64,000 nt of DNA from an uncultured Spirochaetota bacterium (GCA_944388995.1 CALXKN010000007.1:4732-68731), one strand, 5' to 3'; positions 2-37,320 are shown, numbered from the stretch's first letter. Notes: a model not told the origin generated them from the letters alone. Program-made: numbers and translations.

Positions 2-586
2 AACGGCAAGGTTCTCGTCATCATCACGAAAGAGGGATCGATTGCTTCGCCCCAAATGCCGCTGATGCGCATCTCCAATCCGGAGACAATCGCCGTCACC
101 AACGCTCTGCCGGAAAAGTACTACGAAGAGTTTATCGAAAAACAGTCGCGGATGGAGGTGTATGTCCACCGCCCCAACAGCGACAATCCGCCTCAGCCGG
201 CGTCGATTTTTTCGGTCAGCGACTTCATCGACTTTCAGAGCAAGACTTTTGTCGTCAAAAGTTCATTTGACCGCAACCCTGTCAACTGGGTGCCCGGAAT
301 GTTCGTCAAAACTGAATTTGTTTTGGAAAGCAAAAGAGACATTTACATGCTGCCGTTTGAACTGCTGGTCGCCGGCGAACGGCTTTGGATCGTTGAACGA
401 TCGGAAGAAAATCCCGAATCGGGAACCGCGCGCATGATTACGTTTGTACCAACCTATTATAATGCCGACTTTTTTGAAATCCCCGAAGAGTTTGCTTCTT
501 ACGAATTTGTCTGCGAGGGGCAGGATTTTCTGTATGAGGGAGAAGCCGTCCGTATTGTCGGGGAACCGCAGGAAACCGAACAATGA
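2..586 (+). CDS. RND efflux periplasmic adaptor (membrane fusion protein), C-terminal fragment; 5' end lies outside window
   Basis: Frame is open from nt 2 to the stop at 586 (no upstream stop inside window). C-terminal pattern PGMFVKTEFVLESKRDIYMLPFELL resembles the MFP/HlyD-family membrane-proximal domain. Stop overlaps the ATG of the downstream RND pump (ATGA). Confidence 0.55.
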   Translation, partial: NGKVLVIITKEGSIASPQMPLMRISNPETIAVTNALPEKYYEEFIEKQSRMEVYVHRPNSDNPPQPASIFSVSDFIDFQSKTFVVKSSFDRNPVNWVPGMFVKTEFVLESKRDIYMLPFELLVAGERLWIVERSEENPESGTARMITFVPTYYNADFFEIPEEFASYEFVCEGQDFLYEGEAVRIVGEPQETEQ

Positions 587-3500: not shown

Positions 3501-3705
3501 GACTTTAACGACTCTCTTCGGCGTTCTGCCGCTCGCGTTTTCGAAAGGAAACGGAGCAGAGGTATATGCCCCTCTTGGGCAAGCCATTTTCGGTGGTCTG
3601 CTGACCTCAACGCTGATCACCCTTGTCTTAATTCCCATTCTGTACGAAGGACTGGAAATCCGTAAATTACGCCGAATAAAGGCTGAAAATGAGGCCGAAA
3701 AATGA
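583..3705 (+). CDS. RND (AcrB/HAE1-family) efflux transporter permease
   Basis: 1040 aa. N-terminal TM segment followed by a large periplasmic loop, 12-TM architecture, and conserved AcrB-like segments (e.g. GLVVDNSIVVYE, LLGIIALAGVVVNNAIVLVDYIN). Translationally coupled to the upstream adaptor. Confidence 0.9.
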   Translation: MSLPELCIRHKAAVAILTAVAFLAGVLSWRAMNQELIPNISMPTIYIAIPYEGASADQINDKITKILENEFSTMPNLTEMTATNFSGVSLMLLTFDDSIDLYTKILDVREVINQNKSRLPEDIREPIIAFGGATDIPIFSFAIISDSDFEELVRFAEEELIPELSHLHGVAEVEIDGYKRRQVDITLRMDDLSANGVSALEVFGALSTKSVSIPAGYATFQKKTVSLKTVSESADLEEIRNIIVGSANGAPIYLENVADVELRYNEKSRDITTDGKEVIVVSVKRRSDGNAVQIIEESKEILADFRAAKGNSIDFQTLEDDSTMVIDSINSIIESAVLGIVLAILIILLFLRDTRSTIIIGTSIPLSIVCSIICMNAFGISINFLSLCGITVALGMVVDNSIVVYESIFTQRDKGMDAEKSAAEGSRIVGGAILASTTTTACVFIPLLFLGGIAGIFFKDISLTLVFSIIASLVSALTVVPAMCARFLRGENRFKPPRFLTVVSDWVENGLQRLSRFYGNALETALTHRKTVLAFAVLILVISALLISMMGVIFLPPTDYSNIKMEMTVPGSYTFEQSKEKVREVENKIVEIMGEDLMRRVFFVNNERTDNVFFMNAAPITATLFLKPVGEREKGALEWIDELEEVISDEITDCEVVFTNGGLDYLLRYVTGGDKIYSVSIEGNDLDIMYKAAVQIENLMKQDPEIYKTKKSMDLGSKEAVIRLDPDRMGTMGIDSKQAAFTTRILFSRTNVGVFSQNGMLYDMYLSSDYGQKPITPESLENIYIRNMMNGFSALATFSDISFENVATKIDRKDRKNVITITGFADTNDLSGIQSRMDAHLEKMNLPYGVSWQTTGAGKLVQDMLKDVLLALGVAIFLVYAVMVIQFNRFSQPFIILLSIPFCLIGVILGLMIFGSQISLIALLGIIALAGVVVNNAIVLVDYINFLRDEKGMELRPAIIAGCQNRLRPILMTTLTTLFGVLPLAFSKGNGAEVYAPLGQAIFGGLLTSTLITLVLIPILYEGLEIRKLRRIKAENEAEK

Positions 3706-5272: not shown

Positions 5273-6163
5273 TTATTTCATTTGTTTTTCAAGGCGTTTG
5301 ATTTGAGAAGCGGACAGCGAATCTCCCGCGCGGCGGCAAATGTATCCGGCTTCAATCACGGCATCTTTATAGGCTTTGAATTTACTTCCCGAAGGAACCG
5401 CGCACTTGGCAACCGATCCGGCAACTTCACCGACAGCCGCAACGGCGACCAACTCTTCCGCTTTTCCTAAAGACTGATTCGTGTAAGGATCGAAAATTTC
5501 CTCGCCCTGTTTGTAAATATTGATCAATTCTCCGACGGAAAATCCGACATTGGAAATGGTGATAATTCCGTTTGAAACCGACAGTACCAAAGGAGGATAA
5601 ACGCTTTCAATGATTTCCGCTGTCAGCTTATTGGAAAGCGTTTCCATGGCAACGGCAATCACATCATTCGCCGCTTTGGTTCCGCCGCCGGCAACGGTCG
5701 CCACCGTTTTGTCGCCTTCAAAAGTCTCCCTGATGTTCTCTTGAATCACAATCCGTCCGTCATTGACATCCAAAAATTTTAATTCCAGTCCGATGGTGAC
5801 CAGATCCTGTGTCGATCCGCCCAGTCCCAAGACACTGACCTCTTTGGAATCTTTTGAAAAATCAACGATTTTCGCCGTCAGCAAAAAGTCCAAACCGCTC
5901 ATCTGCGTCAGACTGCCCAACTGAGTCAGACTTTCCTGCATGATGCTGTCGATATCGCCGACATTCCGCGTGATGACCGTGAAGCGGTTGCTTTTCACCA
6001 ATGCGGCAGAGAGATACGACTCCAGCTTTTGGGCGGCTTCTTTCGCATCGGCGTTTTCGACAACCACTTTAACGGTATCCAGACCGATAACGGGCTTTCT
6101 TTCCTGTGCAAAAACGCCCAAAACACATCCGATCATCAAAAAAACAAACAAACTTCTCTTCAT
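5273..6163 (-). CDS. CsgG-like secreted lipoprotein, paralog 1
   Basis: Start chosen at MKRSLFVFL (ATG 6161-6163) with AGGAGG 8 nt upstream. Signal peptide with a Cys at residue 14. Shares architecture with the upstream paralog (ALVKSNRF..., DFLLTA, NDGRIV, C-terminal beta-rich module). Confidence 0.5.
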   Translation of the reverse strand: MKRSLFVFLMIGCVLGVFAQERKPVIGLDTVKVVVENADAKEAAQKLESYLSAALVKSNRFTVITRNVGDIDSIMQESLTQLGSLTQMSGLDFLLTAKIVDFSKDSKEVSVLGLGGSTQDLVTIGLELKFLDVNDGRIVIQENIRETFEGDKTVATVAGGGTKAANDVIAVAMETLSNKLTAEIIESVYPPLVLSVSNGIITISNVGFSVGELINIYKQGEEIFDPYTNQSLGKAEELVAVAAVGEVAGSVAKCAVPSGSKFKAYKDAVIEAGYICRRAGDSLSASQIKRLEKQMK

Positions 6164-6192
6164 TCCTTCAACCTCCTGATTTGCTTTGTTTG

Positions 6193-7146
6193 TCAATATC
6201 CGAAGCGGGAACCCAATGCGTCCCGTTTCTTTTTCTCTTCATTGGTGATGTACTCCTGCTCATCATTCAAAGAAATTTTCTGACAGGAAAACCCTTCGTA
6301 AACATTGCCAGCATCCCCCTCCACCACCTCGGCAAAAGACTCTGTCGGACGCACCGTCGTGATTCTGACGCGAGCCACTTCATCGAATCCCAAATCGTTC
6401 AATTCGGCCATCTCTCCTTCAGGGAAAATTTTATAAATCTGTCCCTCTTCGATAAAACCAGCCCCGTAATTGATTTTAACGGAATCGCCGCTGACAGCCG
6501 TCACTTTAACCGGGTCAATCGCATTGGCGACCAAAAATCCGACTTGCAGCGCCGCTTTTCTCAGAACATCAGCAATGTAATTCTGTGAAGTTGACGCGCT
6601 GGCATAATTCTTGGTAGCGACAGGAGCCGCAATTTTTTGCTCCATATCAACAAATTCCGACATGACGATCCGTCCCGTCTGAGCGTCAATCAATTTGAAC
6701 GAGGCTCCGAAACGGAATGTTTTTGTTTCCTGAGAGTAACCTCTCGTCTTGATAATATTGGTATCGATCCCTGCCGTATCGACGGTCCCCGTCAGCAGAA
6801 AATGCACGCCTTTTAACTGCCCCGACTGCGCGGCCGTCTCCGGGTCGATCAATCCGGCGGCGCCCATTCCCTGTTCCTGAAGAAGAGCGTCCAAGCGGGA
6901 GCGTTCCAAACATTCAAAGCGTCTGGTCTTTACCAATGCGGTCGAGACCATATCAAGAAAAGAATCCATGGTAAACTGTGTTTCCGTCGGAACTTCTCCG
7001 AAAATCGTTTCCATATTGCCGACGGCATACGCCTTGTTTTCAAATTCGGCAAACCCGATTCGGATTCTTTCTTCCGGCTCTTCCTGTGAAAAGGCAGCAA
7101 AAGACAAAAAGAAAAGGCAAATACAAACGGCTGATTTTTTTCTCAT
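6193..7146 (-). CDS. CsgG-family (curli-assembly CsgG-like) lipoprotein, paralog 2
   Basis: Signal peptide with Cys. Motif string FAEFENK...TALVKTRRFECLERSRLDALLQEQ...SGQLKGVHFLLTGTV matches the CsgG-family pattern (F.VlER..L..ll.EQ...G..yLL.G.V). Confidence 0.55.
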   Translation of the reverse strand: MRKKSAVCICLFFLSFAAFSQEEPEERIRIGFAEFENKAYAVGNMETIFGEVPTETQFTMDSFLDMVSTALVKTRRFECLERSRLDALLQEQGMGAAGLIDPETAAQSGQLKGVHFLLTGTVDTAGIDTNIIKTRGYSQETKTFRFGASFKLIDAQTGRIVMSEFVDMEQKIAAPVATKNYASASTSQNYIADVLRKAALQVGFLVANAIDPVKVTAVSGDSVKINYGAGFIEEGQIYKIFPEGEMAELNDLGFDEVARVRITTVRPTESFAEVVEGDAGNVYEGFSCQKISLNDEQEYITNEEKKKRDALGSRFGY

Positions 7147-12268: not shown

Positions 12269-13200
12269 CTGTTTTTTACGGAAAGGCTCATTCCGTCCTT
12301 TGTCAAAAACGTTTGCGGAAAAACGGCTTTGGCTTCGTTTAAAAGCTGCTGTAAATCGCGGTTGGTAAACCGCGGCGAATAGTGAATCAAACCCATTTGT
12401 CCGATTCCGCCGGCTTCGGCGGCGATTTGAGCCGCCTGCACCGCCGTCAGATGTTTTTTTTCGGCGGCGCTTTCTGCCAAATCCGCGGTAAACATTCCTT
12501 CGCAGATAAAAAGATCCGAACCGCTCACTTCTCCGGCGATTGTCGGCAGATACGCCGTATCGGTCACAAAAGAAAAACGGCAGCCGCGGCGCGGCGGTCC
12601 GAGCACCTCTTCCGGCTTCACCGGCCGGGAACGGAGACCGACGACCGTTTCGCCCCGCTGCAGATGCGACCAAAGCGGACCGCGCGGCACTCCGGCGGCT
12701 TCGGCTTTCGCGGGGTCAAAAACCCCCGGACGGGGATCTTCAACAAGTTTGTACCCGACGCAAACCTTCGAATGGTTGAGCGGAAACGAGTAAACCGAAA
12801 AATCGTCGCCGCGGAACACTTCCCCGGGAACCGAAGGATCGGAGATCTCCTTAACGATGATTTCGTAGTTGATATACATATCCAAAACGCGGCGGCTGGT
12901 TTCGACGTACTCTTTGATCTTCGGCGGTCCGACAATGATCAGAGGTTCGTCGCGGTCAACCTGAGCCGAAAGCATCAGCAATCCGGGAATGCCGGTGATG
13001 TGGTCGGCGTGCGTATGTGAAACAAAAACGGCCGACACCTTCTTCCATTTGAGATTGAGAGAGCGCAGCGAAATCTGTGTTCCTTCCCCGCAGTCAAAGA
13101 GAAAAAGCGAACCTTCGCGGCGCAGCAGAACGCTGGTCAAAAACCGGTTGGGAAGCGGCATCATCCCGCCGGTTCCGAGAACAAAAACTTCAAAACTCAT
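12262..13200 (-). CDS. rnz: ribonuclease Z (metallo-beta-lactamase fold tRNA 3' endonuclease)
   Basis: HxHxDH motif VSHTHADHITG. About 310 aa, typical short-form RNase Z layout. Confidence 0.8.
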   Translation of the reverse strand: MSFEVFVLGTGGMMPLPNRFLTSVLLRREGSLFLFDCGEGTQISLRSLNLKWKKVSAVFVSHTHADHITGIPGLLMLSAQVDRDEPLIIVGPPKIKEYVETSRRVLDMYINYEIIVKEISDPSVPGEVFRGDDFSVYSFPLNHSKVCVGYKLVEDPRPGVFDPAKAEAAGVPRGPLWSHLQRGETVVGLRSRPVKPEEVLGPPRRGCRFSFVTDTAYLPTIAGEVSGSDLFICEGMFTADLAESAAEKKHLTAVQAAQIAAEAGGIGQMGLIHYSPRFTNRDLQQLLNEAKAVFPQTFLTKDGMSLSVKNSG

Positions 13201-15667
13201 AGACCGTCTGCTCCTGCCGCGTTTCGTTTTCCGTTTTGACGGCGGTCACCCGGAAAACGGTCTGCCCTTTCACCCGCCGGCATTCAAAAGCGGCCGCCTC
13301 CGGATGCGTCAAAATCTCCGTTGCCAACGGATCTTCGATTTGAGAACGCAGGGCGCGGCGCATCGTTCTTGCCCCGTAAGCGGGATCGAATCCGGTCTTC
13401 ACCAATTCATCGCGGACAGCCGCGTCGATTTTCAGGCGGATGCCGATATTTTTCATCCGTCCGATGACTTCCCGGCAGAGCAGATCGACGATTTCGCGGA
13501 TCTGCGGCTCTTTCAGGGAGTCGAACACGACGATTTCATCCAGCCGGTTGATAAATTCCGGTGACAGAAAGCGTTTGGCCTCCGCCGTCGCCGACTGTTT
13601 GATTTCAGCGTAACTTTTCCATCCCTTTTCAGCCGAAAAACCCAACCGGCCGCCTTTGTTCAGATCCTTCGAACCGAGATTACTCGTCATGATGATAACG
13701 GCGTTGCGAAACGATACTTTATGCCCGAGACTGTCGACCAATTCGCCCTCCTCCAGCACCTGCAGCAGCAGATGAAAAACATCGGGATGGGCTTTTTCGA
13801 TTTCGTCCAGCAAAACAACGCAGTACGGACGCCTGCGCACCGCTCCGGAAAGAAGACCTCCGTCTTCGAATCCGACGTATCCGGGAGGCGCTCCGACCAA
13901 TTTGGAGACGTTGTGTTTTTCCATATAATCGGACATATCGACGCGGATCAACGCTTCCGGACTGCCGAAGAGCTTCTCGGCCAATGTCTTTGCCAGATAG
14001 GTTTTTCCGACGCCGGTCGGTCCCAAAAAGAGAAACGATCCGGAGGGGCGCCGCTCCGAAGCCAAACCGACGCGGGAACGGCGGATCGCGGAAGAGAGCG
14101 CCGCCACGGCCGCCTCCTGACCGATGACGGTACGGTTGAGCTCCTCTTCTAAATGCAGCAGACGGAGGGTTTCACTCTCGGCTAATTTTTCGGCAGGAAT
14201 TCCGGCGGCAACAGAGACGACGCGCAGAATATCGTCGGCTGTGACAACGCTGCGCTGCTCCGCATTCCGGTTCCGCCACTGGGCTTCAGCCGCCGCCTTT
14301 TCCGATTCCAGGCGCCGGACGGCGTCCCGCTCCTTTGCCGCCTCTTCGAAACACTGCCGGCCGACAAAAGCGGTTTTTTTCGCATTTCGGGCGCGGATTT
14401 TCTCTTCCAGTTTGAGAATTTCGGCCGGTTTCTCACTGCGTTCAATCCGTTTTTCGGCGCCGGCTTCGTCAATCAAATCAATCGCTTTGTCGGGCTGAAA
14501 ACGCTCGGTCAGATAACGGTTCGACGCGGAAACAGCCGTCTCAATCGCCTCCCGGGTATAGACGACGCGGTGGTGTTCGCCGTAGCGGCGGACAATTCCG
14601 AAGAGGATTTCCCGCGTCATTGCTTCGTCCGGTTCCTCAACGTAAATATTTTGAAACCGGCGGACCAAGGCGGCGTCGTTTTCAATCCGGCGGCGGTATT
14701 CTTTAACGGTTGTCGCTCCGATACACCTGAAATCGCCGCGGCTGAGAGGCGGTTTCAGGATATTGGCGGCGTCGATGGCTCCTTCCGAACCGCCGGCTCC
14801 GACAATGGTGTGAATTTCGTCGATAAAAAGAATGATGTTGCTGCGCTCCGTTACGATTTGAATCAGCTTCTTCAGCCGGTCTTCGAATTCCCCGCGGTAC
14901 TTCGTGCCGGCTACGACCGATCCCATATCCACCCGAAGAATTCTTTTATCCTCAAGTCCGTCGGGAACCGTTCCGGCCGCAATCCGCTGCGCCAAACCCT
15001 CTACCAGCGCAGTCTTTCCGACCCCCGGTTCCCCAAGCAGCAGCGGGTTGTTTTTACGCCGCCGGCTTAAAATCTTCATCATGCGTTCGATTTCTTTTTC
15101 GCGGCCGATAATCGGATCACAATCACCGGCAGCCGCCTGCGCAACCATGTCTTTCGTATACAAAGAGAGAAATTCGTTTTTCCGATTCTCTTCCTCAAGT
15201 TCCTTCGGCGTTCTGACCCGTTCAGAGCTCTCTTTTTTTGCCGCGGAAGGAAAAAAAAGACGGCCGTCCGCGATGAAGGGGCGGCACGGCGAATCTTCCG
15301 CTTCGGCTGCCGTCCGGAAAAGAAAAAGCACATCTCCGCAAAACCCCTCGGGCGCCGAAGAAATTTTTTCGGAGAGCCGCGCAAGAAAACCGGCATACCG
15401 CCGGGACGGCTGCGGCAGAAAAGACCGTTCTTCCCCCGCGGCGGTCTGCGCCACCGACTTTTTCAACTCTTCGGTCAGCTTCTGACGCGAACGGTCGGAA
15501 TCGAAACACTCCCGCGGCTTATACTTTTCCAAAACCGCCAGAAGCAAATGTTCGGGTTCGATCGATTTCGCGGCGAAACGGACGGCGGTTTCCCGAACCC
15601 CGTTGAGCAGCAGCTGCTCGGCGTCGTAATTCAGTCTTTGAGACACAAAACCTCCGATTTTCCGCAA
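13190..15667 (-). CDS. clpC: ClpC/ClpA-type Hsp100 AAA+ ATPase (two AAA modules, ClpP-interaction loop present)
   Basis: Clp N-domain. D1 Walker A GEPGVGKTA and Walker B ILFIDEIH. D2 Walker A GPTGVGKTY and Walker B VVLLDEIEKAH. GRLGFSAE loop (ClpP-binding (V/I)GF-type). Exact start ambiguous because it overlaps mcsB by 37 nt. Confidence 0.85.
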   Translation of the reverse strand: MRKIGGFVSQRLNYDAEQLLLNGVRETAVRFAAKSIEPEHLLLAVLEKYKPRECFDSDRSRQKLTEELKKSVAQTAAGEERSFLPQPSRRYAGFLARLSEKISSAPEGFCGDVLFLFRTAAEAEDSPCRPFIADGRLFFPSAAKKESSERVRTPKELEEENRKNEFLSLYTKDMVAQAAAGDCDPIIGREKEIERMMKILSRRRKNNPLLLGEPGVGKTALVEGLAQRIAAGTVPDGLEDKRILRVDMGSVVAGTKYRGEFEDRLKKLIQIVTERSNIILFIDEIHTIVGAGGSEGAIDAANILKPPLSRGDFRCIGATTVKEYRRRIENDAALVRRFQNIYVEEPDEAMTREILFGIVRRYGEHHRVVYTREAIETAVSASNRYLTERFQPDKAIDLIDEAGAEKRIERSEKPAEILKLEEKIRARNAKKTAFVGRQCFEEAAKERDAVRRLESEKAAAEAQWRNRNAEQRSVVTADDILRVVSVAAGIPAEKLAESETLRLLHLEEELNRTVIGQEAAVAALSSAIRRSRVGLASERRPSGSFLFLGPTGVGKTYLAKTLAEKLFGSPEALIRVDMSDYMEKHNVSKLVGAPPGYVGFEDGGLLSGAVRRRPYCVVLLDEIEKAHPDVFHLLLQVLEEGELVDSLGHKVSFRNAVIIMTSNLGSKDLNKGGRLGFSAEKGWKSYAEIKQSATAEAKRFLSPEFINRLDEIVVFDSLKEPQIREIVDLLCREVIGRMKNIGIRLKIDAAVRDELVKTGFDPAYGARTMRRALRSQIEDPLATEILTHPEAAAFECRRVKGQTVFRVTAVKTENETRQEQTVYEF

Positions 15668-16698
15668 AAAATATCTTTTAAAACCCGCGCGCGCAAATGG
15701 TCGCAGAGAAGCGGCTCGCCGCTATCCGGAAACTGCCGGCGGAAACGGTTCAGTGAACTCTCCTTTAAAAAATCAAAGAGACGGTTGAGTGTCGAACAGG
15801 AGAAATCGGCCGCTCCGGCAAGAACGGCAGTCCGGATAATGTCCAAAAGCCGGTAAGACTCCGAAAGGGTCATTTTTACCGAGGAATGAATCCGCTCCAA
15901 CGCATCGCGGTAACGGCTGTTGATTTGTTCTATCTGTTCCGGCTTCCACTCCCTCCGTTTCAGCCGTTCCATTTTGACAATGGTACTCAAATTTTTCGCA
16001 AACCGCTCAAGCATCCGGGTTTCCGGTTCGCCGTCCGACGCAACGGAGGTTACCGTCAAAACACCGGGAACGGTTTCCTTGAGATCCGGACACAGATACG
16101 GCTCGATTTTCAGATTCTCGGCAGCCGCGATTTTCAGCAGCCGGTTTCCTTCGTCGGTTTGGTTCAGCGCCGGAAGGGAGAGCAGAACCTCGGCCTCGAT
16201 TCCCGCTCCCGTCAGATCCAAGCGGCCGTTCAGGTATCCGTACCGCAATGAAACCGCATAAGGAAAGACCGTTTCCAGCCGGCGGTCGCATCCGATGACG
16301 GCTACCGCCGCGTGAAACAGTTCAAATTCGGGAACGACCGCCCTCAACTCGATTTGTTCCCGGTTCAAAAAAAGCAGCGCCGCGGCGTTGTCGTACAGAT
16401 AAAAAGACGCCGGCACCGCCAGACGGCCGTAGTCGCCGGGAAGGATTCCCCGGTCGCGGTAATAATCAAAATTCGCTCCGACTGCTTTTTCCGCGCGGAA
16501 AAGATTCCGCTGTGATTCGGGCAGATGCGACAGGCGCTCTTTCACGCGGGTCATAAAGCGGTGGGAATCCGCCGCCGACATCTTCTCCGGGAACGGAAAA
16601 TCCGCCATACTGCGGAACAGGGAAACGCGGGAACGGATCACGCAGTCGCCGAAAGAGACAAATTCCCTGTCCCGTGAAACATCAATTTCTTCATTCAT
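15631..16698 (-). CDS. mcsB: McsB-like protein (protein arginine kinase family); catalytic motifs look degenerate
   Basis: N-terminal VIRSRVSLFRSMADFPFPE matches the McsB VLSSRIRLARNF..FPT block. Colinear similarity across the domain. Sits between mcsA and clpC. Expected CPTN(V)GTGLRAS reads NGRLDLTGAGIEAE and NEEDH reads NREQIE. Confidence 0.65.
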   Translation of the reverse strand: MNEEIDVSRDREFVSFGDCVIRSRVSLFRSMADFPFPEKMSAADSHRFMTRVKERLSHLPESQRNLFRAEKAVGANFDYYRDRGILPGDYGRLAVPASFYLYDNAAALLFLNREQIELRAVVPEFELFHAAVAVIGCDRRLETVFPYAVSLRYGYLNGRLDLTGAGIEAEVLLSLPALNQTDEGNRLLKIAAAENLKIEPYLCPDLKETVPGVLTVTSVASDGEPETRMLERFAKNLSTIVKMERLKRREWKPEQIEQINSRYRDALERIHSSVKMTLSESYRLLDIIRTAVLAGAADFSCSTLNRLFDFLKESSLNRFRRQFPDSGEPLLCDHLRARVLKDIFCGKSEVLCLKD

Positions 16699-17191
16699 AA
16701 CGCAAAATCTCTTGCTTTTGTTCGATTTCCTCTTTCAGTCGCTGCGCTTCGGCGTAATCCTCCGCCTCAACGGCAGCCTGCAGACGTTTTTTCTGATCGG
16801 GGATTTCCTCCAGCATCGTCCTGTAAATTTCCATCGACCGGGGAATCCGACCTGAATAAATTTTATCATGAAAACGGCTGTCGTTCAACTCTTTTTCAAA
16901 AGTCCCGTAACATTGCGGACAGCCGGCAGTCTCTTTTTTCAGAAGCAGACTCAAAGCCGTTCCGCAGCGGGGACAGTAAACGGCGCGCCCGTTGGGCGGA
17001 TACGGCGGCTCTTTCATCGATCCGACGGCACGGAAAATCGTATCCAGAACCTTTTCCAGCTGCGGATTCTTTTGATCGATCCCCCGCTCCGCCGCGCAGG
17101 AAGAGCACAGATTCAAATCGGTTGTCTGATTGCCGCGTGTCTGTTTGATGTGGATGACCGCATCGTTTTTTTTACAAATATCGCACTTCAT
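16691..17191 (-). CDS. mcsA: McsA-like zinc-finger / UVR-domain activator protein
   Basis: CDIC...CSSC and CPRC...CPQC zinc-finger pairs plus a C-terminal UVR-like helix (EAEDYAEAQRLKEEIEQ). 166 aa. Directly upstream of mcsB. Confidence 0.7.
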   Translation of the reverse strand: MKCDICKKNDAVIHIKQTRGNQTTDLNLCSSCAAERGIDQKNPQLEKVLDTIFRAVGSMKEPPYPPNGRAVYCPRCGTALSLLLKKETAGCPQCYGTFEKELNDSRFHDKIYSGRIPRSMEIYRTMLEEIPDQKKRLQAAVEAEDYAEAQRLKEEIEQKQEILRYE

Positions 17192-17192
17192 A

Positions 17193-18494
17193 TCAAATAT
17201 CCTTTATGACGTCCGACGGTTTCCGGCTGACGGCCGCCACGGCCGGAATCAAAGCGGCCGCCCCCGAAACGGCAACCGCCAGAACCGCGACCGCGCACAC
17301 CTGTTTCCACCGGATGACCAACGGTATATCTTCAAGATAGTAATCTTTATTGAGAATTTCAATACCGTGCCGGAAAAAACCGTCGCCGTTGATTCCGCTC
17401 AGCAATCCGAAAAAGAAGGACGCTGCAGCGTCGGCCGCCTCCATCAATGTGTTGAGGTTGACGGCGGCCAAAAGACCGAGACTCAGTCCGATAAAGGCGC
17501 CGCAAATACCGACAAGCAAACCGACGGATAAAAAGGCGGTGAAAATCGTCTGCTTCGGAACGCCGAGACTGCGTAAAACCGCGACCGCCGTCCGTTTTTC
17601 CAGTTCAAGCGCCACCATAATGGAAAAAATATTGACCGCCGCCAGAAAGATGATCAGCACGGCAATCATCGAAACCAGAAAAAAGGTGCTTTCAAGATTT
17701 TCGACCAGAGAGCGGTTTTTTTCTTTCCATGTGCGGAAAAAAATTCCCTCTCCGCCGAATTGTCTGTTCAGTTCGGATGAAATTTGCGCCGCCGTTCCGT
17801 CGGTCAGGCAGGTCAGTTTAACGGCGACGGCCGTCCGCACCTGAGCACCGAAAAGTTCCTCCAAGCGCTCCCGGTTGATGTACGCGGTCATTTGATCCAG
17901 TTCGTAATAGCCGGTGGAAAAAATTCCCGAAATGGTGAAAGCCGCCGCCTTCAAAACGGGACGGCCGGCCGCCTCTGCCGCGCTCAAAAGACGCACCGTA
18001 TCGCCGACGGAGGCTCCGAGGGTTTGCGCCAATCCGTCGCTGAGAAGAATGTCCGCAGAGCCGGTTAAGTCAAACGTTCCGCCGAGAATTTCAAAATAGC
18101 GCGCAAACCCCGCGTCGCTTTCATACAGCGACGGCGGTACGCCTTTGACGGCAGCGGCACTCCGACGGCTGCCGGCGGTTAAAAGTCCGCGGCTTTCGCC
18201 GATCGGAACCGCCGATTTCACCCCCGGAACTTCGCTGACGGCCGCTGCGACAGCGGCGGCGTTTGCGTTGAAATCACTCAAATACGACTGTCCGACAATA
18301 TGAAACGACCCGACCTCCAGATAACGTTCGATGATGCCGTCAATCATTCCCGAAGCGGTCTGAATCACCACAATCACCGGAATCAACGACAAAACAATGC
18401 CGAAAACGGCGCCGCGGACCTTCCCCGAATCGCGGCGGCCGCCGAGCGGAACAAAGAGCATCCGGAAAGCGTAAAAAAAAGCGCCGGTTTTCAT
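17193..18494 (-). CDS. LolC/LolE-like FtsX-family ABC permease
   Basis: 433 aa with N-terminal TM, a periplasmic MacB/Lol-type domain and three C-terminal TMs (FtsX fold). Confidence 0.8.
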   Translation of the reverse strand: MKTGAFFYAFRMLFVPLGGRRDSGKVRGAVFGIVLSLIPVIVVIQTASGMIDGIIERYLEVGSFHIVGQSYLSDFNANAAAVAAAVSEVPGVKSAVPIGESRGLLTAGSRRSAAAVKGVPPSLYESDAGFARYFEILGGTFDLTGSADILLSDGLAQTLGASVGDTVRLLSAAEAAGRPVLKAAAFTISGIFSTGYYELDQMTAYINRERLEELFGAQVRTAVAVKLTCLTDGTAAQISSELNRQFGGEGIFFRTWKEKNRSLVENLESTFFLVSMIAVLIIFLAAVNIFSIMVALELEKRTAVAVLRSLGVPKQTIFTAFLSVGLLVGICGAFIGLSLGLLAAVNLNTLMEAADAAASFFFGLLSGINGDGFFRHGIEILNKDYYLEDIPLVIRWKQVCAVAVLAVAVSGAAALIPAVAAVSRKPSDVIKDI

Positions 18495-19180
18495 CGCGAA
18501 TGCAGCCGCCCCTGAGTCAAAACATAACGGACGTCTCCCTTCTGCGCCAACCGGAGATCATGCGTTACCAGAACCAGACTTTTTCCCTCGTTTTCCACCA
18601 TATCAAAAAGCATCTGCTCCACCTTTTCCGAATGCGCTTCGTCAAGGTTGCCGGTCGGTTCATCCGCCAAAATTAACGGCGGATTGTTGATTAAGGCGCG
18701 GGCGACGGCGATGCGTTGGCATTCCCCGCCGGAAAGCTGCGCGGGAAAGTGATCGGCACGGGAAGAGAGCCCCACCTTTTCGATTAAGGTCTGCGCGCGC
18801 TTTTTGGCGCTCTTAAACGGCTCGCCCGCCAAATAAGCGGGCAGGAAAATGTTCTCCAGCGCGGTAAAATCCTCCAGCAGGTGGTGGAACTGAAAAACAA
18901 AACCGATGTATTTACGGCGGTACTCGGTCAGCTGCGGTTCATTCATCTGCGACAGACGGAGATTTTCCATTGTCACTTCCCCGCCGCTTGCGGAATCCAG
19001 TCCGGAAATCAGATTCAGCAGGGTTGTCTTTCCGCAGCCGCTGCTGCCCGTAACGGTCATCTTCTCCTTCCGCTTCAAACGGAAACTGACGCCGTTAAGA
19101 ATCGAAATCCGTTCCTCCCCCGGTTCGTAAATTTTCGACAGATTCTCGACGGAAAGGAGAATTGAGCTGTCATCACTCAT
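18491..19180 (-). CDS. lolD: LolD-like ABC transporter ATP-binding protein
   Basis: Walker [10 protein letters not shown], signature [15 protein letters not shown], Walker [13 protein letters not shown]. Confidence 0.85.
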
Positions 19181-20417
19181 AACGCATCACCTCGCACGGT
19201 TTGACGGCCGTCACGCGCGCCGTCGCCGCTCCGGAAGCCGCCGCCGTTGCCGCCAGACTCAGACCGGCAATGGCCGCCACTTCGGAAAAATCGATTCGGA
19301 TCGGAAGATCGTAAAAAAACCGGAAATCGGGAACAAACCCGCCGGGAAGCGAAAAAAACAGCGATTCGGCAAACAGAATCAGTTCGGAAAAGCGGACCGT
19401 CGCCAGCAGCCCGAGAGAAACGCCGAAAAACACGGCCACCGCTCCCATCAGGATTCCGATAAACAGGAACGAGAGCCGGATTTCGCGCGGCGAAATTCCC
19501 ATCGCCTTGAAAACGGCAATCTCCTTCTGTTTCTCAAAAACCAACCGTTTAATCATGAAATAAAGATTCAAAACGACAACGGCTGCAGCCAGACTGAGTA
19601 AAAACGACATTGCGAATTTTTCGATTCTCAGAGCGCTGAAAAACGAACGGTGAAAATCGCGCCAGCTTTCAATCCGCGCTTCCGGCGGCACAATCTCCGC
19701 CAAAGCCGCCGCCGTCTGTTCGTCGGCAAAACGGTTCTTCAGCTTAATGCCGTAAATCTCCGGGTTGAGTGAAAAACCGGAGCTCAGACTCTCCGACTCG
19801 GTCAGAATCAGAAGCTCGTCAATCTCGCGGAAAGCGGTCTCATAAATGCCGGCGACGGTGAACGCCTGAACCGGCGGCTTTAAAAGCGAAAATTCCGGCG
19901 CGCTCAGCGAAATCAGCTGCAGTTCATCGCCGATCAAAAGTCCCATGTTCAGGGCGACGGCGCGGCTGACAAAAACCGCATTCGGACGGCCGAAAGAGAG
20001 CCGTCCCCTCACCTCGGTCAGCTGCTCCGCCATTCCGGGATCCGTCTCTTTCCAATTTTCGGGGACGGCTCGCAGCAGATAGCCGAAAAAGCGTCCGTTT
20101 TTGCCGATTGCGACGGTTTGGGTTTCGCGGAACGGAATGAGCGAAACCACATTCGGCAGAGCGCGGATTTGCTCCGCCTGCTCTTCACTCAGACAGACAT
20201 TTCCGATTCTCATATGATACGAAGAGACTTCGACAATGGCGTCGATATAGCCGTACTGCAGCCCGTTCATGATGCTGAGAATCAAAATCAGCGCAAAGAT
20301 GCCGCACGCCAGCGTTCCTGTCAGAAGAAGGCTCAGCAGCCGCTTCCCGCGGGAACGACTGCGGAAAAGAATGCGGTAAGCAATGTAGAGCGGACGGAAC
20401 AGCGACGGCCTCTTCAT
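19173..20417 (-). CDS. LolC/LolE-like FtsX-family ABC permease (second copy)
   Basis: 414 aa with the same architecture as 17193-18494. Confidence 0.8.
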   Translation of the reverse strand: MKRPSLFRPLYIAYRILFRSRSRGKRLLSLLLTGTLACGIFALILILSIMNGLQYGYIDAIVEVSSYHMRIGNVCLSEEQAEQIRALPNVVSLIPFRETQTVAIGKNGRFFGYLLRAVPENWKETDPGMAEQLTEVRGRLSFGRPNAVFVSRAVALNMGLLIGDELQLISLSAPEFSLLKPPVQAFTVAGIYETAFREIDELLILTESESLSSGFSLNPEIYGIKLKNRFADEQTAAALAEIVPPEARIESWRDFHRSFFSALRIEKFAMSFLLSLAAAVVVLNLYFMIKRLVFEKQKEIAVFKAMGISPREIRLSFLFIGILMGAVAVFFGVSLGLLATVRFSELILFAESLFFSLPGGFVPDFRFFYDLPIRIDFSEVAAIAGLSLAATAAASGAATARVTAVKPCEVMRYE

Positions 20418-21544
20418 GAATTTCCGCCCTCTTCCGGAGTTTCGCTTTCTTCTGGAGTTTCGCTTTCTTCTGGAGTTTCAGAGGAGGTCTGCGCGGACGA
20501 AGAAGCGCTGAACAGCAGTTCGTTTTCCACTTCAATATTGTCCTTAAAAACGATGCGGATAAAAGGCGCTCCGTTACGGTAAACGGTTTCGGTGTAATCC
20601 TGAGCCGACTCACCGTAAACCAACTCCCTTGTCAGGACTCCGTTGATAAAAACAACGCTTTCGGTCAGCTCTCCCTCATCATCGTATTCGTAAGTGACCC
20701 GTTCCCGGCGGCCGTCAGAGCTGATATATTTTTCCGAAACAAGATTGTCGTCATTGTAGGTGTAATCGATGACGATTTTCGACGGACCGATATAAGTGAC
20801 CTCCCTGACAACGCGGTCTTCTTCATCAAAACTCCGGACGATTTTCTTGTCCTGCGTAAAGTCCTCTTCCACCGCTTCGCCGTTTTCATCCTGTTCCACC
20901 TTCCGGTAGACCAAATCGGTTCCGATCCACTCTTCGGAAGAGGTCAGCTTTCCTTTAAAGTAGTTGTACTGAAACGAATAACCGTTGTAGTTGTGAATTT
21001 GGTTGCGCAAATCGAAGTCCAAAAATCCGTAAACGGAGTATGTGACCCCGCCGTCTTCGTAAGTGTTGGTTGCCCGCAACAGCCGTCCGTTTGAGCCGCG
21101 GGTGTAGGTTGTCGTGTAAATCACCTTCTCGTCGGGAGTTTTGACGACTGTCGAAATGAGATCCCTTCCCGAATAACGGTACTCCCTGATTTCCGAAATT
21201 CTGTTTTCAAAATAAATTTCCTCTTTCACCAGACGGAAGTTTTCGAAATACGACGTCGAAAGCTTTTTGGCGCCGACCAATTCGGTCTCCTGCCACTGTC
21301 CCGGCCGGGCTTTCCGGTTTTCATAAACCCGTTCCCAGCGGCGGATCTCCTTTTGATTCTCGAAAAGCTGGCGGATAACGGCATTATCGAGATCTTCGAC
21401 CGATAAAACGTATTCGAATTCGTCGATTCGGGAAATTCCGATCCGGTTAAAGACCGCTCCCGATTTGTCGGCCCGATAATACGTCGTCTGCGCGGACAGA
21501 GAAAAAGAGAAAAAGATCATCGGCAGCAAAAAAAGACGCTTCAT
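20414..21544 (-). CDS. secreted repeat protein (YwqK/MORN-like internal repeats) with a C-terminal (SETPEE)n tail
   Basis: Signal peptide MKRLFLLPMIFFSFSLSAQ. Repeated Y/E/T-rich beta-hairpin-like units. C-terminus SSETPEESETPEESETPEEGGNS. Confidence 0.5.
   Translation of the reverse strand: MKRLFLLPMIFFSFSLSAQTTYYRADKSGAVFNRIGISRIDEFEYVLSVEDLDNAVIRQLFENQKEIRRWERVYENRKARPGQWQETELVGAKKLSTSYFENFRLVKEEIYFENRISEIREYRYSGRDLISTVVKTPDEKVIYTTTYTRGSNGRLLRATNTYEDGGVTYSVYGFLDFDLRNQIHNYNGYSFQYNYFKGKLTSSEEWIGTDLVYRKVEQDENGEAVEEDFTQDKKIVRSFDEEDRVVREVTYIGPSKIVIDYTYNDDNLVSEKYISSDGRRERVTYEYDDEGELTESVVFINGVLTRELVYGESAQDYTETVYRNGAPFIRIVFKDNIEVENELLFSASSSAQTSSETPEESETPEESETPEEGGNS
20430..20480. repeat. about 2.5 tandem copies of an 18-bp unit (GGAGTTTCGCTTTCTTCT on the plus strand) encoding (SETPEE)n
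   Basis: Direct tandem repetition visible at 20436-20453, 20454-20471, and a partial third copy. Confidence 0.7.
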
Positions 21545-22458
21545 TCTCCCAAAAACCGGTCCAAAAAAAGTTCGGCGTCAAACGGATGAAAATCATCAAG
21601 TCTTTCCCCCGTTCCAGTAAACGCAATCGGAAGCCCGAAACGGCGGCAAATCGCGAACAAATTTCCGCCTTTGGAAAGCGAATCGGTTTTCGTCAGAATG
21701 ACGGCGTCGACGCCGACCGCATCGTTGAAAACCTCCGCCTGACTGACGCTGTTCTGACCCGTCGTCGCATCCAAAACCAAAAACTTCCGCAGACGGTAAT
21801 CGCCGCCTTTCGATTCCAGAATTTTGCTGATTTTTTTCAGCTCCTCAACCAAGTGCGATTTTGTATGCATCCGTCCGGCCGTATCGGCAAGAATCAAGGC
21901 GGCCTTCCTCGCTTTGGCGCTTTCAACCGCATCATAAATCACCGCTCCGGGATCGGATCCGGCTTCATGTCTGACAAGACGCACGCCTAAACGCTCTCCG
22001 TGACGTTCAAGCTGTTCGGCGGCGGCGGCCCGGAACGTATCGCCGGCCGCCAGCACAATACGATCATTGCCGATCTGTTTTCCGTAAAAATGCGCCATTT
22101 TGGCAACCGTTGTCGTTTTTCCGACTCCGTTGACGCCCAAAATCAAACCGACATTCAGGCGGCCGTCCTCCAAGTCGCCGCCGCCGGTAATCAGCGACTC
22201 TCTCAGAATCTCCCGCAGCAAACGGCGGGCCGCGGCTTCATCCTCGGTTTTTCCTGCCTTGACGCGGCGACGCAGCTCTTCGCACACTTCCACCGCGGTT
22301 TTTACGCCGGCATCGCCTTCAACCATTAAATCTTCCAGCTGTCCGTAAAATTCTTCCGAAAGTCCGCCGCCTTTCAGAAACGAAAAAAGCCGGAATCCCT
22401 TTGTCTGCGGCAGATCCTTTTGCCCGTCCGTTGTCTTATTCCGATTGAAAATTCCCAT
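21541..22458 (-). CDS. ftsY: signal recognition particle receptor FtsY
   Basis: SRP-GTPase motifs GVNGVGKTTT, DTAGR and LTKTD. 305-aa short-form FtsY. Confidence 0.9.
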   Translation of the reverse strand: MGIFNRNKTTDGQKDLPQTKGFRLFSFLKGGGLSEEFYGQLEDLMVEGDAGVKTAVEVCEELRRRVKAGKTEDEAAARRLLREILRESLITGGGDLEDGRLNVGLILGVNGVGKTTTVAKMAHFYGKQIGNDRIVLAAGDTFRAAAAEQLERHGERLGVRLVRHEAGSDPGAVIYDAVESAKARKAALILADTAGRMHTKSHLVEELKKISKILESKGGDYRLRKFLVLDATTGQNSVSQAEVFNDAVGVDAVILTKTDSLSKGGNLFAICRRFGLPIAFTGTGERLDDFHPFDAELFLDRFLGE

Positions 22459-34652: not shown

Positions 34653-34675
34653 TTCGCAAAAAGAGGAATCGAACC

Positions 34676-36121: not shown

Positions 36122-36142
36122 TAACGCAAAGCGTTCGATAAG

Positions 36143-37314: not shown

Positions 37315-37320
37315 GATAAA

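What the first reader, a model, noticed from the sequence alone, without database searches (positions are those of the whole stretch)
15631..16698. McsB homologue with apparently degenerate catalytic motifs inside an mcsA, mcsB, clpC module that lacks ctsR
The mcsA (zinc-finger/UVR), mcsB-like and clpC genes are contiguous and overlapping, as in Firmicutes, but no CtsR-like repressor gene precedes them. Instead a Lol-type permease gene abuts mcsA. Aligned by eye to Bacillus McsB, the phosphagen-kinase signature GYLTSCPTNVGTGLRAS reads GYLNGRLDLTGAGIEAE, so the catalytic Cys and the Arg are replaced, and the NEEDH block reads NREQIE. If this holds, the protein cannot make phospho-arginine and may act only as a ClpC adaptor/activator (a pseudokinase). 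The reference sequence is recalled from memory, so the alignment needs verification.
Basis: partly seen in the sequence, partly recalled or inferred. Interest (0 to 1): 0.6.

Follow-up and report, generated by a model that had tools for sequence, protein, structure and literature searches.

The report
Catalytically dead McsB beside spirochaete ClpC
A spirochaete chromosome keeps the McsA-McsB-ClpC protein-degradation module, but its McsB "arginine kinase" has lost almost every residue needed for catalysis while staying under purifying selection. It therefore probably works as a non-enzymatic partner of the ClpC unfoldase.

Summary
Window 15631-16698 (-) encodes a 355-aa protein with the full McsB fold (Foldseek vs 6FH1: E 1.8e-14, TM 0.74). 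It is translationally coupled to an intact McsA (all 8 zinc-binding Cys present) and to a ClpC. No ctsR gene or CtsR box is present, and a LolC/E permease gene ends 1 nt before mcsA.

HMMER, MAFFT and hhalign give the same residue mapping:
- NEEDH reads LNREQ.
- Cys167 becomes Arg, and this position varies within the family.
- Phosphate-binding Arg125, Arg176 and Arg207 all become Glu.
- Glu212 becomes Pro.
- pArg-receptor residues Arg337 and Ser285 are lost.

These changes are conserved in 8 homologues (down to 42% identity). dN/dS is about 0.11, similar to clpC, so this is not a decaying gene.

The family is tiny: 2 representatives among 1.84 billion. However, about 64 of the 148 next-best McsB-like representatives are also degenerate. 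Every degenerate one that carries an organism name is spirochaetal, and most examined lie in mcsA-mcsB-clpC modules, often behind lolCDE.

In this clade the ClpC N-terminal domain has also lost one pArg site (TEH becomes DVL).

Best reading: a conserved McsB pseudokinase acting with McsA on ClpC without pArg. Loss of activity and the adaptor role are inferred, not shown. I found no prior description.

The parts
15631..16698 (-). mcsB-like gene (355 aa). It has the full McsB fold (phosphagen-kinase-like domain plus C-terminal dimerisation domain) with a degenerate active site.
   Evidence: PF00217 E 3.5e-10. hhalign vs canonical McsB: prob 99.9, E 1e-32. AF2 model pLDDT 75, with Foldseek 6fh1_A E 1.8e-14, TM 0.74 over 335 columns. 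dN/dS 0.11-0.12.
16612..16629 (-). N-terminal Arg motif. B. subtilis R29/R31/R34 (SSRIRLARN) reads R24/S26/R29 (RSRVSLFRS), so two of the three Arg are kept.
16348..16368 (-). Remnant of the NEEDH-x-R block, L111-N-R-E-Q-I-E117. Changes: N119->L, E120->N, E121->R, D122->E, H123->Q (G in other members), R125->E.
   Evidence: The states are conserved in all 9 family members. H123 is kept in 147 of 148 other McsB-like representatives.
16189..16239 (-). Remnant of the catalytic Cys loop, G154-YLNGRLDLTGAGIEAE-170. C167->R159 (R/L/H/T across the family), PTN is lost, G172 and G174 are kept, and R176->E168 (invariant).
   Evidence: In the AF2 model the loop at residues 148-164 has pLDDT below 50.
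16087..16104 (-). Lid / active-site loop-2 region, E199-P-Y-L-C-P204. R207->E199 and E212->P204. It contains the family-invariant Cys203-Pro204.
15691..15705 (-). Remnant of the pArg receptor site in the dimerisation domain. R337->C332 (Y/F in other members); D338->D333 and R341->R336 are kept. S285->L278 lies at 15865-15867.
   Evidence: Residue roles are taken from PMC8370763.
16691..17191 (-). mcsA-like gene (166 aa). It has two CxxC...CxxC zinc fingers (C3, C6, C29, C32 and C73, C76, C91, C94), a G-R-I-P linker and a UVR-like coiled coil.
   Evidence: NCBIfam McsA: 66 bits vs cutoff 210, E 2.9e-18. PDB 8wtb_B E 6e-9 with all Cys aligned. Family alignment A5. dN/dS 0.04-0.22.
13190..15646 (-). 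clpC gene (818 aa from the GTG at 15646; the ORF extends to a TTG at 15667). It has two AAA+ modules, a ClpC-type M-domain and an LGF ClpP-docking loop.
   Evidence: Best PDB matches are B. subtilis and S. aureus ClpC, E about 1e-205 to 1e-209, with VGF aligned to LGF. Start site: GGAGG-N4-GTG.
15182..15646 (-). Highly diverged ClpC N-terminal domain. The repeat-1 E32-H33 equivalent is kept (IEPEH). T7->N and R9->D. The repeat-2 T105-E106-H107 (pArg1 site) reads D-V-L.
   Evidence: No Pfam Clp_N hit at E<=0.01. No PDB hit when searched alone. hhalign vs the B. subtilis NTD gives only 44% probability, E 2.4e-4. Residue mapping. It evolves much faster than the AAA+ core.
17193..20417 (-). lolC/E-like permease (19173-20417), lolD-like ABC ATPase (18491-19180) and a second lolC/E-like permease (17193-18494). 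They lie directly upstream and are packed against mcsA. This is context, not a demonstrated functional part.
   Evidence: The same arrangement is seen in L001-L004, L006, L008, L010 and L012.

Best explanation
The gene encodes a McsB-derived pseudokinase. It keeps the McsB fold (kinase-like domain plus dimerisation domain) and its partner McsA, and it is co-translated with ClpC. Its nucleotide/phosphoryl-transfer site has been dismantled, so it most likely neither binds ATP productively nor phosphorylates arginine.

Steps that are shown:
- homology and fold;
- loss of the catalytic Cys and of the NEEDH acid/His residues;
- replacement of three phosphate-binding Arg by Glu;
- loss of pArg-receptor residues R337/S285;
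- conservation of these derived states under purifying selection;
- tight operon linkage to an intact McsA and a ClpP-competent ClpC;
- loss of one of the two pArg-pocket signatures in that ClpC's N-terminal domain;
- absence of ctsR and of CtsR boxes.

Steps that are inferred: the McsA-McsB* complex still binds ClpC, probably through the co-diverged N-terminal domain. There it would act as a phosphorylation-independent adaptor or assembly/activity regulator of ClpC(P), in the manner of MecA-type adaptors rather than by writing a pArg degron. It would be expressed constitutively, or under the control of the long ftsY-lolCDE transcription unit, rather than under CtsR.
For: - Fold and homology.
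- Residue mapping is identical by three methods: R31->S, N119EEDH123->LNREQ, R125->E, C167->R, R176->E, R207->E, E212->P, S285->L, R337->C.
- C167 and NEEDH are described as the catalytic site, and C167A as a catalytic mutant, in PMC11046695. R337, R341, S285 and D338 are described as the pArg receptor site in PMC8370763.
- The derived states are invariant or family-typical in 9 sequences down to 42% identity.
- dN/dS is 0.11-0.12 for mcsB*, against 0.096 for clpC.
- McsA keeps all 8 Zn ligands.
- Translational coupling.
- ClpC keeps its AAA+ modules, M-domain and LGF loop. Its NTD is unrecognisable to Pfam and lacks the E106 'TEH' signature.
- Among other McsB-like representatives, loss of catalytic residues goes with loss of the pArg receptor. 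R337 is kept in 57/77 intact proteins vs 2/61 degenerate ones, Fisher p 8e-19, not phylogenetically corrected.
- Degenerate McsBs elsewhere also sit in mcsA-mcsB-clpC modules.
- No ctsR, CtsR box, LMW-PTP or second McsB was found in the window.
Against: - No biochemical data exist, and inactivity is inferred from sequence. Some pseudokinase-looking proteins retain activity through relocated residues.
- R29 and R34 equivalents, G172/G174, D338 and R341 equivalents and the R194 equivalent (R186) are retained. The family also has conserved acidic residues (E114, E117, E168) and four new invariant Cys, so a different ligand or chemistry is possible.
- ClpC NTDs next to other degenerate McsBs (L008, L010, L011, L012) still keep T7/R9/E32/E106. 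Loss of McsB catalytic residues therefore does not generally entail loss of the ClpC pArg pockets.
- A canonical McsB or another arginine kinase could exist elsewhere in the genome, since only 64 kb was visible.
- The catalytic-loop region of the AF2 model is low-confidence.
- Physical interaction with ClpC is inferred from gene order only.
Confidence: 0.6

Rival explanations
1. A rewired but still active phosphotransferase. The protein would still catalyse phosphoryl transfer, to arginine or another acceptor, using relocated residues such as the invariant Cys203-Pro204 in the lid loop and the conserved Glu114/Glu117/Glu168.
For: An invariant 'CP' dipeptide appears in the lid loop that closes over the active site of phosphagen kinases, and other polar residues are invariant. 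R24 and R29 (R29/R34 equivalents) are retained. The strong purifying selection is compatible with an enzyme.
Against: Three of the Arg that bind nucleotide phosphates in phosphagen kinases and McsB are replaced by Glu, a charge reversal expected to repel ATP. The C167 position is not even conserved within the family, reading R/L/H/T. H123, kept in 147/148 other McsB-like representatives, is Q/G here. The pArg receptor site is lost in parallel.
Confidence: 0.1
2. A ligand or degron reader. The former active site has become a conserved acidic pocket that binds a cationic ligand, for example unmodified arginine/guanidinium groups of substrates or a metal. The four new invariant Cys might form a redox or metal site. 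McsB* would then sense or select substrates for ClpC. This is a more specific version of the adaptor model.
For: Invariant E114, E117 and E168 sit at former Asp/Arg positions, and C19, C203, C301 and C352 are invariant where canonical McsBs have none. The fold and McsA partnership are retained.
Against: This is inferred purely from residue identities.
Confidence: 0.15
3. A function tied to lipoprotein or secretory traffic rather than to ClpC regulation as such. McsA-McsB* would be retained because it works with the upstream Lol-type ABC transporter and FtsY, for instance handing mislocalised lipoprotein precursors to ClpC, or regulating LolCDE.
For: The order ftsY - unknown secreted protein - lolC/E - lolD - lolC/E - mcsA - mcsB - clpC, with overlapping or abutting genes, is conserved between loci whose McsB proteins are only distantly related, for example P0009, P0011 and P0032.
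Against: Gene order alone does not show functional coupling. Other degenerate McsB modules (L011, L013, L014) lack the lol genes but keep mcsA-mcsB(-clpC), so the invariant partnership is with McsA and ClpC.
Confidence: 0.1
4. A decaying pseudogene, or an artefact of misalignment or mis-assignment (not really McsB, or the motifs are conserved at shifted positions).
For: Family scores are far below the curated cutoffs (73 vs 385 bits), and NCBI annotates relatives as 'hypothetical protein'.
Against: The ORF is intact in every locus, and dN/dS of 0.11-0.12 matches the neighbouring clpC. 90 columns are invariant across 9 sequences. The full-length McsB fold match has TM 0.74. Three alignment methods give the same mapping without gaps in the motifs.
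Confidence: 0.02

Closest known systems
McsB protein arginine kinase of Bacillota (B. subtilis, G. stearothermophilus, S. aureus; PDB 6FH1, 6TV6, 8WTB, 8GQD)
   Same: Same two-domain fold, with a phosphagen-kinase-like domain and a helical dimerisation domain (TM 0.73-0.74). Same length. Same partner gene mcsA upstream and clpC downstream. G172/G174, the R29 and R34 equivalents and the D338/R341 equivalents are retained.
   Different: Only about 18% identity. NEEDH, C167-P-T-N, R125, R176, R207 and E212 are all replaced, and three Arg become Glu. The pArg receptor residues R337/S285 are lost. Four new invariant Cys appear. It scores far below the NCBIfam equivalog cutoffs. It should not be filed as a protein arginine kinase.
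Class III heat-shock operon ctsR-mcsA-mcsB-clpC of Bacillota
   Same: The order mcsA-mcsB-clpC with overlapping genes, and an McsA with both zinc fingers and a UVR-like coiled coil.
   Different: No ctsR gene and no CtsR operator. The module is appended to ftsY/lolCDE genes with no intergenic space. The ClpC N-terminal domain is highly diverged.
McsAB outside Bacillota, e.g. Chlamydia trachomatis mcsAB (PMC10128030) and Planctomycetes (Thermoguttaceae) McsB
   Same: These show that mcsAB occurs without ctsR in Gram-negative lineages.
   Different: The Thermoguttaceae representatives keep all seven core catalytic residues scored here. Chlamydial mcsAB is separated from clpC. The present family is catalytically degenerate.
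Non-enzymatic ClpC adaptors (MecA, MdfA)
   Same: The proposed mode of action is the same: a protein that binds the ClpC N-terminal and/or M-domain and relieves the resting state without any covalent mark (PMC12583610).
   Different: No sequence or fold relationship. The resemblance is in inferred function only.
Other degenerate McsB-like proteins of Spirochaetia MAGs (e.g. MBN2737308.1, MBN1409370.1, MBN2531539.1, HUX49257.1)
   Same: Also lack C167 and several catalytic Arg/Glu. Most lie in mcsA-mcsB-clpC modules, often behind lolCDE. They are unannotated or auto-annotated.
   Different: They keep D122-H123 and a Pfam-recognisable McsB_C domain and ClpC Clp_N domain. The window's family is the most derived branch: only 2 representatives at 50% identity, with a gap from 605 to 143 bits.

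Membership tests
McsB protein arginine kinase (NCBIfam NF002194 / NF053707; Pfam PF00217 + PF27454) | Phosphagen-kinase-like catalytic-domain fold | tested here: met
   PF00217: 40 bits vs cutoff 22.4. Foldseek to McsB structures E 1.8e-14, and to arginine kinases E about 1e-8.
McsB protein arginine kinase (NCBIfam NF002194 / NF053707; Pfam PF00217 + PF27454) | McsB-specific C-terminal dimerisation domain | tested here: met
   Full-length structural match to 6fh1/6tv6 over 335 columns, TM 0.74. hhalign aligns residues 252-348 to the canonical C-terminal domain. PF27454 is not among the precomputed Pfam hits of family members, so it is met by fold and profile only.
McsB protein arginine kinase (NCBIfam NF002194 / NF053707; Pfam PF00217 + PF27454) | Score above the curated equivalog cutoff | tested here: not met
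   73.2 bits vs 385 (NF002194) and 55.4 vs 500 (NF053707).
McsB protein arginine kinase (NCBIfam NF002194 / NF053707; Pfam PF00217 + PF27454) | NEEDH motif with catalytic Glu | tested here: not met
   Reads L-N-R-E-Q (G in some members). E120->N, E121->R, H123->Q.
McsB protein arginine kinase (NCBIfam NF002194 / NF053707; Pfam PF00217 + PF27454) | Catalytic Cys167 in the C-P-T-N loop | tested here: not met
   R159 in the window, and R/L/H/T across the family.
McsB protein arginine kinase (NCBIfam NF002194 / NF053707; Pfam PF00217 + PF27454) | Phosphate-binding arginines (R29, R125, R176, R207 in B. subtilis numbering) | tested here: not met
   Only the R29 equivalent is kept. R125, R176 and R207 all become Glu.
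McsB protein arginine kinase (NCBIfam NF002194 / NF053707; Pfam PF00217 + PF27454) | pArg receptor site (R337, R341, S285, D338) | tested here: not met
   R337->C/Y/F and S285->L/M. The D338 and R341 equivalents are kept, but they are near-universal even in degenerate homologues.
McsB protein arginine kinase (NCBIfam NF002194 / NF053707; Pfam PF00217 + PF27454) | Arginine kinase activity | not testable with these tools
   Needs a biochemical assay.
McsB protein arginine kinase (NCBIfam NF002194 / NF053707; Pfam PF00217 + PF27454) | Genomic association with mcsA and clpC | tested here: met
   Overlapping mcsA-mcsB-clpC genes, conserved in all related loci.
McsA (protein-arginine kinase activator; NCBIfam NF053706) | Two CxxC...CxxC zinc fingers plus a C-terminal UVR-like coiled coil | tested here: met
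   All 8 Cys align with B. subtilis McsA (8wtb_B, E 6e-9) and are conserved in the clade. The score of 66 bits is below the equivalog cutoff of 210.
ClpC (class I Hsp100 unfoldase with ClpP-docking loop) | Two AAA+ modules, a short M-domain and a (I/L/V)GF loop | tested here: met
   E about 1e-209 to B. subtilis ClpC over residues 163-787. The M-domain is aligned and LGF aligns with VGF.
ClpC (class I Hsp100 unfoldase with ClpP-docking loop) | Clp_N double-repeat N-terminal domain with two pArg pockets (E32, E106) | tested here: inconclusive
   No Pfam Clp_N hit. hhalign probability is 44%. The E32-H33 equivalent is kept, but T7->N, R9->D and T105-E106-H107->D-V-L. The AF2 model of the NTD is unusable at pLDDT 47.
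CtsR regulon (class III heat-shock genes) | ctsR gene upstream and a CtsR heptad-repeat operator | tested here: not met
   No CtsR family hit among the window ORFs. Operator-like matches do not exceed chance and none lies near the operon.
Pseudoenzyme / pseudokinase (operational definition) | Enzyme fold retained, catalytic residues lost, sequence under purifying selection | tested here: met

The most novel reading that the evidence does not exclude
Spirochaetes as a group may have converted the McsA-McsB arginine-kinase system into a phosphorylation-independent McsA-pseudoMcsB adaptor for ClpC. This adaptor is hard-wired into the ftsY-lolCDE operon, so it would couple lipoprotein and secretory-protein trafficking to ClpC-dependent quality control. 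The former active site would be re-used as an acidic, Cys-decorated ligand or redox-sensing pocket. The window's clade would be the end-point of this trajectory, with the ClpC N-terminal domain co-evolved to read the pseudokinase instead of pArg.
Probability: 0.15. Interest if true: 0.8.

Novelty: new variant of a known kind. Interest (0 to 1): 0.6.

Why it matters
McsB is the only known dedicated protein arginine kinase, and pArg is regarded as the degron that McsB writes and ClpC reads. Whether McsB's adaptor or activator role for ClpC can be separated from its kinase activity has been debated. A natural, conserved, kinase-dead McsB that still travels with McsA and ClpC would be an evolutionary separation-of-function experiment. 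It predicts a pArg-independent McsAB-ClpC interaction that can be tested directly in vitro.

It also flags an annotation problem. Many spirochaete McsB homologues are auto-labelled 'protein arginine kinase' or 'hypothetical protein' although they lack the catalytic residues. Finally, the repeated linkage to lolCDE/ftsY suggests an unexplored connection between envelope protein sorting and Clp proteolysis in spirochaetes.

Tried and rejected
- Misalignment. Rejected, because phmmer vs PDB, MAFFT with 157 sequences and hhalign profile-profile all give the same gap-free mapping in the motifs.
- Pseudogene. Rejected by the intact ORFs and dN/dS of about 0.11.
- Second McsB, CtsR or LMW-PTP (YwlE) in the window. 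None was found by Pfam scans of all large ORFs or by six-frame hmmsearch with canonical and family profiles. A whole-genome search was impossible because only one genome-contig scan is allowed and it was used.
- CtsR operator search. At chance level.
- General co-loss of ClpC pArg pockets with McsB degeneration. Not supported outside this clade, because ClpCs beside other degenerate McsBs keep T7/R9/E32/E106.
- AF2 model of the ClpC N-terminal domain.
- afdb50 fold library. Unavailable, so UniProt/AlphaFold entries of cultured spirochaetes could not be checked.
- Word-indexed searches with the ClpC NTD and with a profile of degenerate spirochaete McsBs. They added no named cultured organism.
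- The McsB structure paper PMC6522372 is not held. Residue roles were taken from PMC11046695 and PMC8370763 instead.
- The promoter/terminator scan of the operon gave nothing interpretable.
- Literature searches for a McsB pseudokinase, McsB in spirochaetes, 'McsB-like' and an arginine-kinase pseudoenzyme found no prior description.

Full report
**What is there.** Window 11-25 kb is one long run of minus-strand genes with overlapping or abutting ends:
- prfB, a PEGA-domain protein, ftsY, and an unknown secreted 376-aa protein;
- a lolC/E-like permease (19173-20417), a lolD-like ATPase (18491-19180) and a second lolC/E-like permease (17193-18494);
- a 166-aa McsA-like protein (16691-17191), the 355-aa McsB-like protein of the finding (15631-16698) and an 818-825-aa ClpC (13190-15646/15667);
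- then RNase Z and an ABC-2 transporter.

The lolE stop is 1 nt from the mcsA ATG. mcsA and mcsB overlap by ATGAATGA. The mcsB stop lies inside clpC. The likely clpC start is the GTG at 15646, preceded by GGAGG-N4, and an independent gene call (P0157) starts at the same residue. The window is a spirochaete chromosome: it carries FlaA at 63384-63977, and the closest loci are Spirochaetes/Spirochaetia MAGs.

**Check of the observation.** The protein is a genuine but very divergent McsB homologue:
- PF00217: 40 bits, E 3.5e-10.
- NCBIfam McsB equivalogs: 73 and 55 bits against cutoffs of 385 and 500.
- PDB McsB chains: E about 3e-9.
- A profile of 20 canonical McsBs: 110 bits.
- hhalign between the family profile and canonical McsBs: probability 99.9%, E 1e-32 over 329 columns.
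- An AlphaFold2 model (pLDDT 75, pTM 0.76) matches McsB crystal structures over the full length, with 6fh1_A at E 1.8e-14 and TM 0.74. Arginine and creatine kinases match only the kinase domain, at TM about 0.5.

The dimerisation domain typical of McsB is therefore present.

Its landmarks C167, R190, R194, S285, R337, D338 and R341 agree with PMC11046695 and PMC8370763, and residues 23-318 agree with the PDB alignment.

| B. subtilis McsB | Window protein |
|---|---|
| R29 | R24 (kept) |
| R31 | S26 |
| R34 | R29 (kept) |
| N119-E-E-D-H123 | L111-N-R-E-Q115 |
| R125 | E117 |
| C167-P-T-N | R159-L-D-L |
| G172, G174 | kept |
| R176 | E168 |
| R207 | E199 |
| E212 | P204 |
| S285 | L278 |
| R337 | C332 |
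| D338, R341 | kept |

C167 and NEEDH are the catalytic elements of McsB, and C167A is used as a catalytic mutant (PMC11046695). R337, R341, S285 and D338 form the pArg receptor site (PMC8370763). Three phosphate-binding arginines have become glutamates. From general knowledge of phosphagen kinases, this should be incompatible with binding the ATP phosphates.

**Not an accident of one genome.**
- The word-indexed search found 8 relatives (99-42% identity). All carry the same derived states: GYLN[GS]xxxxTGAG[IL]EA and LNRE[QG][ILV]EL.
- The C167 position is not even conserved within the family (R/L/H/T), whereas E117 and E168 are invariant.
- Against three MAG orthologues the gene has dN/dS 0.11-0.12 for the closer pairs, like clpC (0.096) and the lol genes. 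It is therefore a selected protein, not a decaying pseudogene.
- An exhaustive profile search of 1.84 billion representatives found only two representatives of this family (684 and 605 bits). The next hit dropped to 143 bits, followed by about 1,950 McsB-like proteins.

**A wider pattern.** I scored the 148 next-best representatives at seven core positions: R29, E121, R125, C167, R176, R207 and E212.
- 76 keep all seven, and 64 keep four or fewer.
- In a rough NJ tree the intact sequences cluster together, while the degenerate ones form several long-branched groups. The window's family pairs with P0009.
- Every degenerate representative that carries an organism name is from Spirochaetales/Spirochaetia MAGs. 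NCBI labels them 'hypothetical protein', and JGI labels several 'protein arginine kinase'.
- Named intact ones near the top of the list are Thermoguttaceae (Planctomycetes).
- Contexts of six degenerate representatives show mcsA(UVR)-mcsB, and in the five loci that reach downstream, clpC follows (L014 ends just after mcsB). In four of them a Lol/FtsX permease, or the full ftsY-x-lolCDE string, lies upstream. None has ctsR.
- Loss of catalytic residues goes with loss of the pArg receptor. R337 is present in 57/77 intact versus 2/61 degenerate representatives (Fisher p 8e-19), and S/T285 in 53/77 versus 4/61. These counts are not corrected for phylogeny.

**Partners.**
- McsA is well preserved. 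All eight zinc-ligand cysteines, the GC..CY..F segment, the G-[RK]-[ILV]-P linker and the UVR-like coiled coil align with B. subtilis McsA. It evolves more slowly than McsB* (76% vs 61% identity to L002/L003).
- ClpC is a bona fide ClpC, at E about 1e-209 to B. subtilis ClpC. The M-domain is present and an LGF loop aligns with the VGF ClpP-docking loop.
- The ClpC N-terminal about 155 residues are unusual. They give no Pfam Clp_N hit, no PDB hit when searched alone, and only 44% hhalign probability to the B. subtilis NTD. They diverge far faster than the AAA+ core: 33% vs 73% identity to L004, and 21% vs 58% to L006.
- Positional alignment of the NTD keeps the repeat-1 E32-H33 signature. T7 becomes N and R9 becomes D. 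The repeat-2 T105-E106-H107, whose E106 is the key residue of the pArg1 pocket (PMC12583610), reads D-V-L. This holds in all six loci of the clade.
- ClpCs next to other degenerate spirochaete McsBs still have canonical NTDs. The NTD change is therefore specific to this most derived clade and is not a general correlate.

**No CtsR control.** No ORF in the 64-kb window hits CtsR, an LMW-PTP (YwlE-type) or a second guanido-kinase domain. CtsR-box-like sequences occur at chance frequency and none lies near the operon. There is no intergenic space upstream of mcsA. McsAB without ctsR is already known outside Bacillota, for example in Chlamydia (PMC10128030), so this part alone is not novel.

**Interpretation.** The best-supported reading is a McsB-derived pseudokinase that still works with McsA and ClpC.
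- Shown: fold, partner genes, dismantled catalytic and pArg-receptor sites, conservation under selection, and a diverged ClpC NTD lacking one pArg signature.
- Inferred: no ATP binding or phosphotransfer, and McsA-McsB* binding ClpC to act as a phosphorylation-independent adaptor or activity regulator (MecA-like in logic), expressed with the ftsY-lolCDE unit instead of under CtsR.

Rivals:
- A rewired active enzyme. This is unlikely given the Arg-to-Glu reversals and the unconserved 'Cys' position.
- A reader of a cationic ligand or a redox sensor. Invariant E114/E117/E168 and four family-specific invariant cysteines (C19, C203, C301, C352) leave this open as a refinement.
- A role tied to Lol/FtsY traffic. 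This rests on synteny only, and some degenerate modules lack lol genes.
- Pseudogene or misalignment. Refuted.

**Novelty.** Full-text searches for a McsB pseudokinase, McsB in spirochaetes, 'McsB-like' and an arginine-kinase pseudoenzyme returned nothing relevant. Recent reviews of phosphagen-kinase homologues and of bacterial pseudokinases do not mention inactive McsBs. I therefore rate it a new variant of a known kind: a known module (McsA-McsB-ClpC) whose enzymatic heart has been converted into a pseudoenzyme, with this window holding the most extreme form.

**Limits.**
- No biochemistry is available.
- The genome outside the 64-kb window was not searchable for a canonical mcsB or ywlE.
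- The NTD model failed.
- The afdb50 library was unavailable.

Noticed in passing
window 15182-15646 (-): The ClpC N-terminal domain is so diverged that Pfam Clp_N does not detect it, and hhalign to the B. subtilis NTD gives only 44% probability. It evolves much faster than the AAA+ core (33% vs 73% identity to L004). The repeat-2 'TEH' (E106 pArg pocket) reads D-V-L, and R9 is D.
   Followed up: partly
window 13190-22458 (-); L001-L004, L006, L008, L010, L012: The gene order ftsY - unknown secreted protein - lolC/E - lolD - lolC/E - mcsA - mcsB - clpC (- rnz - ABC-2 transporter) is conserved across spirochaete MAGs whose McsB proteins are barely alignable. This hints at a long-standing link between Lol/SRP functions and ClpC.
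   Followed up: partly
window 15646-15667 (-): The mechanical ORF for clpC starts at a TTG at 15667, but a GTG at 15646 sits 4 nt after a perfect GGAGG. Independent gene calls for homologues start at the corresponding 'MSQRLNYD', so the annotated start should probably be 15646.
   Followed up: yes
window 15631-16698 (-), residues C19, C203, C301, C352: Four cysteines are invariant in the family and absent from canonical McsBs. One lies in an invariant P-[YH]-x-C-P-x-L-K lid-loop motif and one in a conserved C-terminal V-[LV]-C-x-K-D tail. This may be a new metal or redox site.
   Followed up: no
window 20409-20479, within the 376-aa ORF 20414-21544 (-): An 18-nt tandem repeat (about 3.9 copies) encodes (ETPEES)n at the C-terminus of a signal-peptide protein that has no Pfam hit. 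The protein sits between ftsY and lolC in all syntenic loci.
   Followed up: no
window 34001-38000: G+C drops to 0.42-0.45, against about 0.51 elsewhere. The dip covers a TPR/peptidase-MA-like protein, a CCA-adding/poly(A) polymerase-family gene and part of a GH3 glycosidase. It may be a laterally acquired segment.
   Followed up: no
window 5273-7146 (-): Two tandem CsgG-like (curli secretion channel family) lipoprotein genes lie next to an AcrB-type RND pump gene (583-3705).
   Followed up: no
P0061 (WP_438385107.1, Clostridium sp. LP20; also C. paraputrificum WP_430857797.1): A clostridial protein annotated 'protein arginine kinase' has A-R-P-T-N instead of S-C-P-T-N and K instead of R176, while every other core residue scored is canonical. 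It is a natural Cys-less McsB in Bacillota and worth a look.
   Followed up: no
P0011, P0013, P0024, P0282 (NCBI) and P0037, P0042, P0278-P0286 (JGI): Annotation is inconsistent. Degenerate spirochaete McsB homologues are 'hypothetical protein' in NCBI but 'protein arginine kinase' in JGI/IMG, and the latter name is probably wrong for them.
   Followed up: partly
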